Assembly: GCA_017440405.1 (NCBI GenBank)
Contig: JAFSHG010000087.1
Coordinates: 1-54,306 of the forward strand
DNA: 54,306 nt
Source: Clostridia bacterium
GTDB taxonomy: Bacteria; Bacillota; Clostridia; Christensenellales; CAG-138
Direction of reading: 5' to 3'
Part shown: one piece after another, positions 3,576-8,105 of the stretch
Position numbering within the stretch: position 1 is the first letter of the stretch
Layout of the letters: every line of letters starts with the position of its first letter
Translations under genes and position numbers: made by a program
The notes under the pieces: model-generated
Databases searched by the model: none
Told to the model about the DNA's origin: nothing
The model's input: only the letters and a program-made list of their open reading frames with translations

Positions 3576-5012
3576 ATGTTATTGAAATTGGCTACAGTGA
3601 CTGATGTGCAGAAGTATTGCAAAGAGAACGGCATCAGAATGATTGACTTCAAAATGACCGATATTGACGGAAGATGGCGTCACATCACCATCCCGGCAGA
3701 GCGCTTTACCGATGAAACCATGAAATACGGTATAGGTTTTGACGGCTCAAACTACGGTTATGCACCCGTTGAGAACAGCGACATGGTATTTATCCCCGAT
3801 ATTTCAACCGCAGCACTCGACCCCTTCTGTGAGGAACCCACAGTTTCCATGGTAGGCGATGTTATGATAATCAAGAGACCGGAAAATATCCCCTTTGACC
3901 AGTATCCCAGAAACGTAATGCGTCGTGCTACCGACTTCATGAAGGAGCAGGGTATAGCAGACGAAATGATTATAGGACCCGAATTTGAGTTCCACGTATT
4001 CGATAATGTATGGTATGATGTTCGTTCAAACAGAGCATCATTTGAGGTTGACACACGCCAGGCTCAGTGGAACAGCAACACAGGTGACAGCAAGGGATAT
4101 CAGGTTGACCCGCACAGAGGATATCATTGCTCAATGCCCAATGATGTAACACAGGATGTTCGCAGCAGAATGTGTGAGCTCATGGAAGACATGGGAGTGG
4201 GTGTGAAATATCATCACCATGAAGTAGGCGGTTCAGGACAGCTTGAGATAGAAGTTCAGCTCGGCGAAGTAAACAAGATGGCTGACGACACCATGACCAT
4301 TAAGTATATCATAAAGAATCAGGCTTTGCGTGAAGGCAGAACAGCTACACTCATGCCCAAGCCCATCTACGGCGAAGCAGGCAACGGTATGCACGTACAT
4401 ATGCTCCTCATGAAAGACGGCAAGCCCCTGTTCTATGATGAAAACGGTTATGCACAGTTATCTGAGCTTGCACACTATTTCATGGGCGGTCTTTTGAAGC
4501 ACGCTGCATCACTGTGTGCTATCACAAACCCCTCAACCAACTCATTCAAGCGTTTGGTTCCCGGTTTTGAAGCACCCGTAACCATAGGTTATGCAACGGC
4601 AAACAGAAGTGCCGTAATCAGAATCCCGGCATACGCAAAGTCGCCTGAATCCAAGCGTTTTGAGCTGCGCAACCCCGATGCAACATGTAACCCCTATTAT
4701 GCATATGCAGCAATCCTCATGGCAGGTCTGGACGGCATCAGAAACAAGATAAATGCGGCTGACCACGGCTGGGGACCTTTCGATTTCAACCTCTTCTCAC
4801 TCTCTAAGGAAGAACAGGCAAAGATTCAGGGTCTGCCCACAAATCTCCACGAGGCATGCAAGGCATTGCGTGAGGACCATGATTACCTCACAGTCGGCGG
4901 CGTATTCCCCGAAAGATTGATTGAGCAGTGGATAGCAAGACGTGAGAAGGATGCAACAGAAGTGGACAAGATTCCGCATCCCGCTGAGTTTGCTAAGTAT
5001 TATGACCTATAA
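3576..5012 (+). CDS. glnA: glutamine synthetase, type I
   Basis: 478-aa ORF with GGAGG 8 nt upstream of the ATG. GS-I motifs: FDGSN, GPEFEFHVF, MPKPIYGEAGNGMHVH, NPSTNSFKRLVPGFEAPV, RFELRNPD. Confidence 0.95.
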   Translation: MLLKLATVTDVQKYCKENGIRMIDFKMTDIDGRWRHITIPAERFTDETMKYGIGFDGSNYGYAPVENSDMVFIPDISTAALDPFCEEPTVSMVGDVMIIKRPENIPFDQYPRNVMRRATDFMKEQGIADEMIIGPEFEFHVFDNVWYDVRSNRASFEVDTRQAQWNSNTGDSKGYQVDPHRGYHCSMPNDVTQDVRSRMCELMEDMGVGVKYHHHEVGGSGQLEIEVQLGEVNKMADDTMTIKYIIKNQALREGRTATLMPKPIYGEAGNGMHVHMLLMKDGKPLFYDENGYAQLSELAHYFMGGLLKHAASLCAITNPSTNSFKRLVPGFEAPVTIGYATANRSAVIRIPAYAKSPESKRFELRNPDATCNPYYAYAAILMAGLDGIRNKINAADHGWGPFDFNLFSLSKEEQAKIQGLPTNLHEACKALREDHDYLTVGGVFPERLIEQWIARREKDATEVDKIPHPAEFAKYYDL

Positions 5013-5039
5013 TTCATAAAAACGGAATTATGAAAAATA

Positions 5040-5072
5040 CCGCTTCCTTTCACATGAGGGGAAGCGGTTTTT
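5040..5072 (+). terminator. rho-independent terminator of glnA
   Basis: Hairpin CCGCTTCC(5040..5047)/GGAAGCGG(5060..5067) followed by TTTTT (5068..5072). Confidence 0.8.
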
Positions 5073-5432
5073 CATGAGCTGCGAGAGAAAATATGCGGTT
5101 TTTTAGTCAACACCGAGAGCACATACGGATATACCGTGACATGTTGCAAGGACAGCAAACGGGCAGGGCAGATATGTGCGGCAATGAAAGTGGGGTACGT
5201 TTGACTACCCTACAAAACTACACTACTCTCAAACCACTTTTCGCATTTCTAAAGAATCACGGCTGTTTGACTACCCTACAAAACTACACTACTCTCAAAC
5301 TGAACAGTAAAACGTAACCGCCACAATGCCGTTTGACTACCCTACAAAACTACACTACTCTCAAACGCATTTATCCTTGCCGCCGTGTTTGCCTGTGTTT
5401 GACTACCCTACAAAACTACACTACTCTCAAAC

Positions 5433-5645
5433 GTCAATAAAGGGATGGTTCTTTATTAAAAGAAAAGCTAACCTTGCGGCTTTCTCTTCGATTGAGGGGT
5501 AGAAGTCAACTCCGCCAAAGGATTGAAATGGGGATACAAGGCAGGAATCCAATGCGCCTTCATCTCGCACTCCGTCAAGACCACCTGTTTCTGTAATCAA
5601 CATACTGTGAAGTCTTTTGACCTGTGTTTTGCTAAGTTCTTCTAC
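5433..5645 (-). pseudogene. doc: Doc/Fic (death-on-curing) toxin gene fragment, 3'-truncated inside the HPFxDGNKR motif by a CRISPR repeat
   Basis: My translation reads ..EELSKTQVKRLHSMLITETGGLDGVRDEGALDSCLVSPFQSFGGVDFYPSIEEKAARLAFLLIKNHPFID. The next codons, GTT TGA, are repeat sequence. The remaining ORF from the ATG at 5603 is 58 aa, below the ORF-track cutoff. No canonical start codon lies upstream of the conserved N-terminus. Confidence 0.85.
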
Positions 5646-5647
5646 TA

Positions 5648-6070
5648 TTATTCCTCCAATCCTGCGAGAATCTCATATGCTTTATGATACTTCGCAAACA
5701 TTCTTTTAGATGCCCTTTCCACCTCTGCGTCTGTTGCATATCTTCTCTCGCCCTGAACGGACTCGTTGCGAATGCGTGAACTCGCCGGCTTCTTGATGAA
5801 TGATAAAACGAGTTTCCAAAAATCCTTCCAATCCATATCGTCAGTGCCACACAAAACAAAAGTGCCATCATCGCTTAACCATGTTTCAGAAGAGTGGTAT
5901 TTGCGAGCCGCTTCGGTGATTATGTAATCAACCTCTTCTTTGATGTCAGCCGTAGTCCACCAATATGTCTTTTTCATCTCTTCAAATGTTTCAAAGCCTT
6001 CCTTTTTCATAGTCTGCAAGAAGTCTTTTGCAACGATTTTTGCAAGCTCTTCTATTGTCAACTTTTTCAT
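5648..6070 (-). CDS. hypothetical protein in the antitoxin position upstream of and overlapping the doc fragment; putative orphan antitoxin
   Basis: 140-aa ORF with AAGGAG 10 nt upstream of the ATG at 6070. Its stop overlaps the doc reading frame, a typical toxin-antitoxin layout. The C-terminal tail ..ATDAEVERASKRMFAKYHKAYEILAGLEE resembles antitoxin C-termini. I recognise no family for the N-terminal ~95 aa. Confidence 0.5.
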   Translation of the reverse strand: MKKLTIEELAKIVAKDFLQTMKKEGFETFEEMKKTYWWTTADIKEEVDYIITEAARKYHSSETWLSDDGTFVLCGTDDMDWKDFWKLVLSFIKKPASSRIRNESVQGERRYATDAEVERASKRMFAKYHKAYEILAGLEE

Positions 6071-6429
6071 AAATTGAATACTCCTTTATTCTTGATAGGT
6101 TTGACTACCCTACAAAACTACACTACTCTCAAACTATTGATATCTACATGCGTATAGAGGTCGAGGTTTGACTACCCTACAAAACTACACTACTCTCAAA
6201 CTACAATCTTATAGACAACATCTGCATCAGTGTTTTACTACCCTACAAAACTACACTACTCTCAAACTAGGCTGTTGAGTGTCCGCCACTCGTCAGAGTT
6301 TTACTACCCTACAAAACTACACTACTCTCAAACTTTTCCTTGCCCTTGCAGGTCGTGGCTTCGGTTTGACTACCCTACAAAACTACACTACTCTCAAACA
6401 TTTGTCAAGAGGGGTAGCCAATATTTTTG

Positions 6430-6547
6430 GTTTGACTACCCTACAAAACTACACTACAAGTTCAAATAAAAGTAATCTCAAATCGTTCGGTTATTCCGTC
6501 CATGCACAGCGGTGCAAAGAAAATGCGTCTGTTTCAGGCGTTTTTTT
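6430..6547 (+). ncRNA. tracrRNA: tracrRNA (anti-repeat, nexus-like region, two 3' hairpins, U-tract); 5' end undetermined
   Basis: Positions 6430-6457 are identical to repeat positions 1-28. The sequence then diverges to AAGTTCAAATAAAAGTAATC.., compared with S. pyogenes ..UAGCAAGUUAAAAUAAGGCUAGUCC. The predicted lower stem pairs crRNA GUUUGA with tracr UCAAAU, separated by a bulge. Hairpins are TGCAC/GTGCA at 6503-6516 and 6526-6540, followed by T7 at 6541-6547. Confidence 0.8.
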
Positions 6548-6826
6548 GTTATATAGCCCATAGACGGACAGAATGTAATGTGATATCAAAAGCCCCCTTG
6601 TATTTTTATCGCTCGTGATACCCCCGAAAGATACGGAGCATTTTTTTGCTGCATATGCTCTCTAAGTTATATTATACTTTCCGGGGAAACAAATGTCAAT
6701 TATTGTAAAATGAAGCAGACGTCAATGTAACAGCACACTCTCTGATGTAAAAAAAACTATGTATCATGAAGGTTTTGAATATTTTTACGGTACGGCGGGC
6801 AATGAAATCTTATGACATTCATACGC

Positions 6827-6855
6827 TTGAAACCGAAAGGTGAAAGTGCTATAAT
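6827..6855 (+). promoter_or_regulatory. sigma-A promoter of the hypothetical-radA operon (TTGAAA-17-TATAAT)
   Basis: -35 TTGAAA at 6827..6832, a 17-nt spacer, and -10 TATAAT at 6850..6855, 30 nt upstream of the ATG at 6885. Confidence 0.6.
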
Positions 6856-6884
6856 TAGCGTATTCAAAGGAATCGGAGGATGTT

Positions 6885-8105
6885 ATGCCATCTGAATATT
6901 ATAACAGCCCCGGGCGTTACAAGCCGGGAAGAAAAAAACGCGGTACTTATAAGCCCAGAGGAAAGAGGGGATTGCCTGTTTTCGTGCGGGTTATTTTAGG
7001 CATTGCTGTGGTAGGACTGCTTACGCTCGGCGTTTTATTTGTTATCCCGGGAGTGGGCGGCGGCAGTTTTTCGCTCTTTCAAGCAAAGGACGACACACCT
7101 GTTGCGACACCAACGCCTGCACCCACCGCACATCCCATAGAAAACGCCAACACAGACAGCTTGATTCGTGATATCGCTATCACGGATACCAACTTCCAAT
7201 GGTTTGCGGACATGAACGTGTACGGCGATACGCTCATGTTCTGCGGTGGCGAGATTGTGGACGGCGATGCGTACATGACGGGCCTTTTCTCGGTTTCAAC
7301 GGATGAAAATGCTCCGAGGACGGCAAAGCGCACGAATATAATTTTGGAAAACGACCATATAATGTATCCGTGTTTTAACGATAACTGGCTGGTGTATCTG
7401 GACGCAAAAGCTTCAAGCGGCGGCAAGATAATGTGCAGTCCGTATTCGGGAGAATCTTCGGAGGCATTTTTAGTAAAAGAAGTGTATACGGGACATCCTG
7501 CACTGTTCCTCTCGGGGAATTTTTTGGCGTGGACGGAGCGCACGGGTACGAGCATGGATAAGTTGTATATTTACGACCTCACAACCAGGGAGAGTGCAAC
7601 TGTTCAGATGTTTAATAAAACCACATATTACGGCGTGAGTAAGCCTCACCTTTCGGGGAAACAGTTGGTATGGGCAGACGTGGACACGGAAAATTCCACG
7701 GGCAGCATGACGAGTCAGATTTGTATAATGAATACGGAATCGGGCGAGTTTTTATCATATAAGCCCGGTACATATGCACACGACCCTAAATCAAACGGTG
7801 ATAAATACATAGCTTGGATTACGGGGAATCACGGCACGGACAGTGACCTGTACATATCGTATGATATGGGCGAGGCGGAAAAAATAGCAGAGGGTGTTGT
7901 GGACTTTTATATGGATGAAAACTATCTCGCTTACCAGAAGGATGAGATGGTGTATGTTTATATTTTTTCAACAAAAGCTCAGTACAGGGTGAGCAAGAGC
8001 GGCCAGTGTGTGCAGCTCATAGGTGCATCGGGCGGATGCGTTATGTGGTCGGATGTGTCATCCAGAATGCGTGAAGTGCCTCAGTACATCGTAATACCCG
8101 AATAA
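6885..8105 (+). CDS. membrane-anchored protein with a probable beta-propeller ectodomain (hypothetical)
   Basis: 406-aa ORF with a basic N-terminus followed by a TM helix (VILGIAVVGLLTLGVLFVIPG). Motifs recur in the ectodomain: FLAWTERTG, QLVWADVD, YIAWITGNHG, YLAYQKDE. It ends 6 nt before radA. Confidence 0.6.
   Translation: MPSEYYNSPGRYKPGRKKRGTYKPRGKRGLPVFVRVILGIAVVGLLTLGVLFVIPGVGGGSFSLFQAKDDTPVATPTPAPTAHPIENANTDSLIRDIAITDTNFQWFADMNVYGDTLMFCGGEIVDGDAYMTGLFSVSTDENAPRTAKRTNIILENDHIMYPCFNDNWLVYLDAKASSGGKIMCSPYSGESSEAFLVKEVYTGHPALFLSGNFLAWTERTGTSMDKLYIYDLTTRESATVQMFNKTTYYGVSKPHLSGKQLVWADVDTENSTGSMTSQICIMNTESGEFLSYKPGTYAHDPKSNGDKYIAWITGNHGTDSDLYISYDMGEAEKIAEGVVDFYMDENYLAYQKDEMVYVYIFSTKAQYRVSKSGQCVQLIGASGGCVMWSDVSSRMREVPQYIVIPE

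What the first reader, a model, noticed from the sequence alone, without database searches (positions are those of the whole stretch)
5427..5452. The junction crRNA would guide against the Fic-motif codons of intact doc genes, and the truncation point sits next to an inferred GG
Suppose the array is processed as in known type II systems, where the mature crRNA is the last ~20 nt of a spacer plus the 5' part of the downstream repeat. The giant unit would then yield a guide 5'-AGAACCAUCCCUUUAUUGAC-3' (reverse complement of 5433..5452) fused to GUUUGAGAG. That guide is the coding sequence for (K)NHPFID, the most conserved part of doc/fic genes. In type II arrays the spacer end that abuts the downstream repeat is the PAM-proximal end. 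The Fic motif continues as DGNKR, so the donor DNA must have read GGN AAY AAR immediately after the captured end. That is a G-rich, PAM-like context. This fits PAM-guided capture of the fragment, and it would make the locus target plasmids or phages carrying the intact toxin.
Basis: inference. Interest (0 to 1): 0.6.

Follow-up and report, generated by a model that had tools for sequence, protein, structure and literature searches.

The report
Doc-gene stub at CRISPR spacer junction

Summary
Reverse complement of 5433-5452 is AGAACCATCCCTTTATTGAC, which encodes (K)NHPFID of a Doc/Fic toxin and abuts a full 36-nt type II repeat (GTTTGAGAG...).

- **PAM:** contigs in animal-gut runs carry protospacers for spacers S3, S4, S5 and S9. 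Three of the four 3' flanks read NNAGC (chance about 0.005). Only the 31-nt spacer S5 (TGCAAAA) resembles it.
- **GG:** it is forced by the Gly codon.
- **Cas genes:** the 89.6%-complete MAG has no cas9, cas1, cas2 or csn2. Relatives have tracrRNA-cas9-cas1-cas2-csn2-leader-array. Here the tracrRNA anti-repeat is fused to the array, so the operon and leader were deleted.
- **Reach of the guide:** it matches only near-identical cassettes.

Best reading: this is a fossil of one non-canonical, oversized, repeat-flush integration of mobile-element DNA. It keeps an intact chimeric antitoxin gene and a disabled doc stub. Interest is modest.

The parts
5397..5432 (-). Complete 36-nt repeat downstream (in crRNA sense) of the oversized unit. 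Its 5' part GUUUGAGAG... would be the crRNA handle. It also supplies the V-stop that ends the doc stub (stop at 5427-5429).
5433..5452 (-). Predicted 20-nt guide AGAACCATCCCTTTATTGAC = codons (K)NHPFID of the Fic motif. This is the PAM-proximal end of the unit.
5433..5648 (-). doc (Doc/Fic toxin) stub of 72 codons, cut after the D of HPFIDGNKR. Its start codon is ATA here (5646-5648) but ATG in L011 and in a contig of run X7.
5648..6070 (-). Intact 140-aa ORF in the antitoxin position. The N-part belongs to a family of ~90-aa mobile-element proteins. The C-terminal tail is like that of Phd-type antitoxins of the closest doc genes.
6071..6098 (-). 28-nt 5' untranslated piece with RBS AAGGAG. 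The unit begins here, 4 nt after the -10 box of the donor's promoter, which was not captured.
6099..6134 (-). Complete 36-nt repeat upstream of the unit, identical to the downstream one.
5199..6399 (-). Cas-less type II-A-like array: nine repeats, eight 30-31-nt spacers and the 666-bp unit.
6430..6547 (+). tracrRNA-like gene. Its anti-repeat is fused in register to the array, and it ends in a terminator at 6525-6547.

Best explanation
The site is the PAM-proximal junction of one oversized, spacer-like unit in a decayed type II-A CRISPR array of an animal-gut bacterium. While the adaptation machinery was still present, a 666-bp piece of a mobile-element cassette (promoter, chimeric antitoxin ORF140, doc) entered the array flush between two complete repeats. 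This is most simply explained by a non-canonical Cas1-Cas2 integration with repeat duplication that ignored both the 30-nt ruler and the usual PAM. The piece runs from just after the cassette's -10 box to the Asp codon of the Fic motif, so it carries the whole antitoxin gene and a dead toxin stub. The donor's next bases, GGCAAC, are simply the Gly-Asn codons. Later the cas9-cas1-cas2-csn2 operon and the leader were lost by recombination between the tracrRNA anti-repeat and a repeat. Today a crRNA from this junction is unlikely to be made in quantity or used. Shown here: the sequences, the donor, the flush junctions, the absence of cas genes from the assembly, and the PAM-side consensus. Inferred: the integrase mechanism and the order of events.
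For: Both flanking repeats are full identical 36-mers with no spacer remnant. The natural cassette L011 has no repeat at either boundary. Homology starts at L011 545, after TTGACA-17-TGcTATAAT (512-540), and the sequence runs on into GGCAACAAACGT. Junction-spanning contigs occur in two runs. Other spacers were taken canonically: 30 nt, with NNAGC on the 3' flank in 3 of 4 protospacers, so the machinery once worked and this unit is the exception. Donor flanks at both ends lack AGC at +3..+5. Family relatives with repeats sharing the first 16 nt have tracrRNA(opposite strand)-cas9-cas1-cas2-csn2-leader-array. No tracrRNA lies next to their arrays. In the window the anti-repeat matches the repeat perfectly over 28 nt up to the repeat border and sits one spacer from the next repeat. 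No cas protein match was found in the MAG by HMM or tblastn. The same fusion is seen in a second strain from another study (X3 contig joining 6302 to 6435). Mobile-element origin: ORF140 N-domain homologues lie in ~42-kb phage-like contigs and next to DUF932.
Against: No integration of a prespacer this long by a type II-A Cas1-Cas2 is known to me, and the literature search found no precedent. The mechanism is inferred from the flush borders only. The MAG is 89.6% complete in 131 contigs, so a cas locus on an unbinned contig cannot be excluded. A perfect sigma-70 promoter on the minus strand (6699..6671) could still drive transcription through the array. The PAM rests on four protospacers known only from 30-nt flanks, and one of them (S5) resembles the donor flank.
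Confidence: 0.55

Rival explanations
1. First reader's model. Cas9-assisted, PAM-guided capture set the right-hand end next to a G-rich PAM. The junction crRNA then directs Cas9 against plasmids or phages carrying an intact doc.
For: The donor does read GGCAACA after the captured end. The 31-nt spacer S5 has the flank TGCAAAA, 5 of 7 identical to the donor's (chance 0.013). All five flanks contain GC followed by A or T, at +4..+6 in three and at +2..+4 in two, so a 2-nt slipped register is conceivable. L011 and one 70%-identical doc (2 mismatches outside the 3' 11 nt) would be matched by the guide.
Against: Three of four protospacers give NNAGC, and a related Cas9's protospacer gives NNAGG. 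The donor has CAA at these positions. GG follows from the Gly codon. No cas9 or cas1 is in the MAG, and the leader is deleted. The guide 22-mer occurs in no doc gene in GTDB genomes, IMG/VR or JGI metagenomes, and the single hit is a chance match in a response-regulator gene. Other close doc genes have 7 mismatches.
Confidence: 0.12
2. Two ordinary neighbouring 30-nt spacers, taken from the two ends of the cassette in the same orientation, recombined with an incoming copy of the element. This replaced spacer-repeat-spacer by the 606 bp that lie between them in the element.
For: It would also give borders flush with repeats and needs no oversized integration. Several spacers from one element are common (own knowledge). 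Spacer S1 shares a 15-nt core with the cassette's promoter region.
Against: It needs two spacers that both lack the NNAGC flank: GAAAAAG after unit position 30 and GGCAACA at the end. It also needs a double crossover on 30-bp homologies. No strain with the two-spacer precursor was seen.
Confidence: 0.1
3. Cas-independent illegitimate recombination, template switching, or a mis-threaded assembly placed the fragment between repeats.
For: There is 1-nt overlap (G) at the right junction and an AAA match near the left one. Short-read contigs break at the repeats, so the position of the unit between S5 and S7 rests on the MAG contig alone.
Against: Two independent breakpoints landing exactly on repeat borders, with both repeats intact, is improbable without an integrase. 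Junction k-mers are present in two runs.
Confidence: 0.08

Closest known systems
Type II-A CRISPR-Cas arrays (Streptococcus pyogenes / S. thermophilus type; repeat family GTTTGAGAG... as recalled for Treponema denticola)
   Same: 36-nt repeat, 30-nt spacers, a tracrRNA with anti-repeat and CAAGTTCAAATAAAAG nexus-like segment, and a PAM on the 3' side of the protospacer. Relatives carry cas9-cas1-cas2-csn2.
   Different: No cas genes and no leader. The tracrRNA is fused to the array. One unit is 666 bp instead of 30 and lacks the PAM flank.
Phd-Doc toxin-antitoxin module (phage P1 type)
   Same: Antitoxin gene immediately upstream of, and overlapping, a 125-aa-class Doc/Fic toxin gene with HPFIDGNKR. 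The antitoxin C-tail is like Phd-type partners.
   Different: The toxin is cut inside the catalytic motif and has lost its ATG. The antitoxin is 140 aa with an unrelated N-domain and no PhdYeFM Pfam match.
Casposon integration by casposase, the Cas1 homologue (own knowledge)
   Same: Insertion of a long DNA with duplication of the target segment, which is what a repeat-flush 666-bp unit looks like.
   Different: No terminal inverted repeats and no casposase. The target is a CRISPR repeat.
Chromosomal orphan antitoxins as anti-addiction modules (own knowledge: Saavedra De Bast et al. 2008)
   Same: An intact antitoxin without a working toxin, of mobile-element origin, sits in a chromosome.
   Different: It sits inside a CRISPR array without its own promoter. 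Expression and protection are untested.

Membership tests
Type II-A CRISPR-Cas system | cas9 present | tested here: not met
   TIGR01865 and Cas9_PI searches, and tblastn with the cas9 of relative G138, gave no hit in the 89.6%-complete MAG. The same model found cas9 in 5 of 5 relatives.
Type II-A CRISPR-Cas system | cas1, cas2, csn2 adaptation genes | tested here: not met
   PF01867 gave no hit. tblastn with G138 cas1, cas2 and csn2 gave none.
Type II-A CRISPR-Cas system | tracrRNA with an anti-repeat complementary to the repeat | tested here: met
   6430-6547(+): duplex with the repeat -52 kcal/mol, terminator present, homologous to tracrRNAs upstream of cas9 in G031, G088, G105 and G138. 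Rfam gave no hit.
Type II-A CRISPR-Cas system | PAM on the 3' side of protospacers | tested here: met
   NNAGC in 3 of 4 flanks, with no consensus on the other side.
Canonical type II spacer (applied to the 666-bp unit) | Flush with complete repeats on both sides | tested here: met
Canonical type II spacer (applied to the 666-bp unit) | Length set by the ruler (30-31 nt here) | tested here: not met
   666 bp
Canonical type II spacer (applied to the 666-bp unit) | Donor carries the system's PAM at the canonical offset | tested here: not met
   The donor flank is GGCAACA against NNAGC. The test is weak because n=4 and S5 deviates in the same way.
Canonical type II spacer (applied to the 666-bp unit) | Foreign (mobile-element) origin | tested here: met
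   The intact cassette lies on a separate metagenome contig. N-domain relatives lie in phage-like contigs. There is no other copy in the MAG.
Doc/Fic toxin | Complete HxFx(D/E)GNKR motif and full length (~125 aa) | tested here: not met
   The gene is cut after HPFID. 72 codons remain, and the start codon is ATA.
Phd/YefM antitoxin | PhdYeFM N-terminal domain | tested here: not met
   No Pfam match for ORF140. Only the C-terminal 25-29 aa resemble Phd-like partners, at 48-52% identity.

The most novel reading that the evidence does not exclude
A type II-A adaptation complex can, rarely, integrate a prespacer twenty times too long in casposase fashion. Here the capture delivered a promoterless but complete antitoxin gene in the sense of array transcription. 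That gene has been kept, while its toxin stub lost motif and start codon, because read-through expression protects the host against addiction by doc-bearing elements. The array would then serve as a landing pad and expression site for an anti-mobile-element gene even after Cas loss.
Probability: 0.15. Interest if true: 0.65.

Novelty: new variant of a known kind. Interest (0 to 1): 0.35.

Why it matters
If the flush 666-bp unit really is a Cas1-Cas2 product, it shows in nature that the spacer ruler and PAM check of a type II-A system can fail outright and insert a whole gene. This is a link to the casposon origin of adaptation, and a route by which arrays could acquire cargo. For the narrow claim under review the outcome is sobering. 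The neat match between guide and Fic motif follows from where the fragment happened to end. The GG follows from a glycine codon. The locus has no nuclease to use the guide.

Tried and rejected
- **Rfam** scan of 4900-7000: no tracrRNA family hit.
- **Exact repeat core:** not found in 60 relatives or in GTDB species genomes.
- **BLAST** of the unit and of the whole array against GenBank phages and PLSDB plasmids: nothing useful. The only hits were 85% matches of 39 nt in Helicobacter phages at E 0.4.
- **IMG/VR exact scans** with the 3' 22-mers of S2, S3, S4, S5, S7, S8 and S9: none.
- **Guide 22-mer:** none in IMG/VR or JGI metagenomes. The single GTDB hit (L012) is a chance match on the other strand of an OmpR-type regulator gene.
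- **S1 22-mer:** one metagenome hit (L013; 26 of 30; AT-rich element; flank GACTTTT). I treat it as a related promoter element, not the true protospacer.
- **Family-wide DNA search:** weak partial matches to S7 (24/30) and S4 (25/30) were judged chance or homologous genes.
- **RNA:** no RNA holder is listed among the sequencing runs.
- **Run X3:** it has no cover over 5326-6106. A hole is not evidence that the unit is absent there.
- **Joint 5437->6450** in X1 and X2, with side 20 and unknown letters between: left uninterpreted.
- **Substitutions against L011:** antitoxin 8 synonymous and 8 non-synonymous, stub 4 and 5. These do not separate selection on the array copy from selection on the donor.
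- **Literature searches** for oversized spacers or toxin-antitoxin genes in arrays: no precedent found. A similar but different repeat is listed from a human microbiome data set (PMC3374615).
- **Pfam and PHROGs:** nothing for ORF140 or its ~90-aa relatives.
- **Earlier notes:** a look-up by the repeat sequence returned nothing.
- **Not run:** Complex prediction and structure prediction, because binding is not a claim of this report.

Full report
**What is at the site.**
- The window holds nine 36-nt repeats. On the minus strand they read GTTTGAGAGTAGTGTAGTTTTGTAGGGTAGTCAAAC. Their + coordinates are 5199-5234, 5265-5300, 5331-5366, 5397-5432, 6099-6134, 6166-6201, 6232-6267, 6298-6333 and 6364-6399.
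- They are separated by 30-31-nt unique spacers, except for one 666-bp unit at 5433-6098.
- On the minus strand this unit ends ...CTTTTAATAAAGAACCATCCCTTTATTGAC and is followed at once by GTTTGAGAG.
- The reading frame gives ...AARLAFLLIKNHPFID, then Val-stop inside the repeat. The stub matches Pfam Fic at E 1.7e-11.

**Orientation.** Four lines of evidence put the crRNA on the minus strand.
- The tenth, "degenerate" repeat (6430-6465, + strand) is the anti-repeat of a tracrRNA-like gene. It continues CAAGTTCAAATAAAAG... and ends in a terminator at 6525-6547. It is homologous to tracrRNAs that lie upstream of cas9 in four relatives.
- Protospacer flanks show a consensus only on the side predicted for a type II PAM.
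- In a second strain (run X3) the repeat at 5199 carries two changes, as terminal repeats often do.
- Relatives have cas9-cas1-cas2-csn2-leader-array, with repeats reading GTTTGAGAG in the sense of the operon.

**The donor.**
- ORF140, the 140-aa ORF of the unit, has one close relative among 5.8 billion proteins (94% identity).
- Its contig, L011 (1289 bp, ENA metagenome), is 95.9% identical to the unit over all 666 bp without gaps.
- L011 shows the natural context: a perfect promoter TTGACA-17-TGcTATAAT (512-540), then AAAG, then the homology from base 545. ORF140 follows, then a doc gene whose ATG overlaps the ORF140 stop.
- After ...CAT CCC TTT ATT GAC the sequence continues GGC AAC AAA CGT ATT = G N K R I.
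It also holds for three more distant doc genes (GGC/GGG/GGA AAT AAG).
- This is what any Fic motif must encode, so the GG adds no evidence of its own.
- Neither boundary of the captured piece is next to a repeat in L011.

- Exact scans of IMG/VR and BLAST against phage and plasmid collections found no protospacers.
- Laying Logan contigs of four animal-gut runs on the locus did. Contigs with long non-repeat flanks on both sides contain S9 (runs X1, X2), S4 and S5 (X3). A shorter contig (117 and 12 flanking letters) contains S3 (X1).
- The 3' flanks in crRNA sense are listed below.

| Spacer or donor | 3' flank |
|---|---|
| S3 | AGAGCTGTGC |
| S4 | GGAGCTATTA |
| S9 | GAAGCACTGG |
| S5 | TGCAAAAATC |
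| Donor (L011) | GGCAACAAAC |

- Three of the four spacers share AGC at +3..+5. Simulation gives 0.005 for such agreement at any offset.
- One protospacer family for a spacer of relative G106 (repeat differs at 6 of 36 positions) has CGAGGAA, again AG at +3,+4.
- The donor has C-A-A at +3..+5.
- The caveat is S5, the only 31-nt spacer. Its flank shares 5 of 7 positions with the donor's (P about 0.013). All five flanks contain GC followed by A or T, two nt nearer in S5 and the donor. A slipped register therefore cannot be excluded with n=4.

**Can the guide act?**
- The MAG (1.55 Mb, 131 contigs, 89.6% complete) has no match to Cas9 or Cas1 models. It also has no tblastn match to cas9, cas1, cas2 or csn2 of the closest relative. 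The Cas9 model found the gene in 5 of 5 relatives.
- In relatives the tracrRNA lies upstream of cas9 on the opposite strand and never beside the array.
- In the window the anti-repeat is identical to the repeat over 28 nt up to the repeat border and sits one spacer from the next repeat.
- This is what a crossover between the anti-repeat and a repeat would leave. Such a crossover removes the operon, the leader and the tracrRNA promoter.
- The same fusion occurs in strain X3 from another study, where two units (S2, S1) are also missing (contig joining 6302 to 6435).
- The guide's reach is narrow. Its 22-mer is in no doc gene of GTDB genomes, IMG/VR or JGI metagenomes. The closest other doc genes (about 70% protein identity) differ at 2, 7 and 7 of 20 positions.
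- No intact doc or other Fic gene is in the MAG, and no spacer has a self-target.

**What the unit is.**
- ORF140 is a chimeric antitoxin. Residues 1-93 belong to an unannotated family of ~90-aa proteins found in phage-like contigs and beside DUF932.
- Residues 108-136 are 48-52% identical to the C-terminal tail of the 80-aa Phd-like antitoxins that accompany the closest doc genes.
- The doc stub has lost the catalytic motif from Gly onward. In the window it has also lost its start codon: ATA, against ATG in L011 and in a contig of run X7 that otherwise differs at 1 of 291 positions.
- The unit lies in the sense of array transcription, with its RBS but without its promoter.

**Mechanism.**
- Two breakpoints landing exactly on repeat borders, with both repeats intact and identical and no repeat in the donor context, point to an integrase-type event with repeat duplication.
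- That event did not obey the 30-nt ruler and, by present evidence, did not obey the PAM either. I rate this reading at 0.55.
- None of these can be settled without more flanks, long reads or experiments.

**Verdict.** The PAM reading and the functional reading are not supported. The junction is best seen as a fossil of an aberrant acquisition in a now cas-less array. The oversized, gene-bearing unit is the unusual thing here; the guide and GG coincidence is not.

Noticed in passing
window 6071-6098; L011 512-547: The unit's upstream end lies 4 nt after the -10 box of a perfect promoter (TTGACA-17-TGcTATAAT) in the intact cassette. That is within about 2 nt of the expected transcription start, so the promoter is excluded almost exactly. 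This could be chance (about 1% for +/-3 nt), a DNA end formed at an open complex, or a hint of an RNA-derived copy.
   Followed up: partly
window 6400-6429 (S1); L011 503-517; L013 2694-2715(-): Spacer S1 shares an exact 15-mer CTACCCCTCTTGACA with the -35 region of the cassette promoter in L011. It also shares 22 nt (26 of 30 overall) with a promoter in an AT-rich phage- or plasmid-like metagenome contig. This looks like a promoter or operator element shared among mobile elements.
   Followed up: partly
window 6671-6699 (-), and 6560-6664: A 12-of-12 sigma-70 promoter on the minus strand points through a hairpin-rich 100 nt towards the tracrRNA tail and the array. It may drive an unannotated small RNA or read-through into the array and ORF140.
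   Followed up: no
window 6302-6435 and 5199-5203: A strain in run X3 (another study) has the tracrRNA fusion but lacks the S2 and S1 units. It has G>A at 5199 and G>T at 5203 in the terminal repeat. The same run holds contigs with the S4 and S5 protospacers.
   Followed up: partly
window 5646: A contig of sheep-gut run X7 has C here (ATG start of doc, as in L011) and is otherwise identical over 5590-5880. The true donor lineage, or an earlier state of the unit, therefore circulates in sheep gut.
   Followed up: no
window 6446-6486: In runs X2 (1725-nt contig) and X7 the tracrRNA segment is preceded by non-array DNA (...GTAATTTATCCCTTAT). These are probably intact tracrRNA-cas9 loci of sister organisms, and they could supply the cognate Cas9.
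   Followed up: no
window 5651-6070; L040-L042: The N-terminal 93 aa of ORF140 define an unannotated family (95 representatives at E<=0.001) of ~90-aa proteins in phage-like contigs and next to DUF932. It has no Pfam or PHROG model.
   Followed up: partly
L016-L026, L043: 22 of 239 genomes of the same family gave a DNA match to the array. In the 11 loci inspected, the repeats keep the first 16 nt (GTTTGAGAGTAGTGTA) and vary in the 3' half. G138 shows the complete II-A locus with a 1356-aa Cas9.
   Followed up: partly
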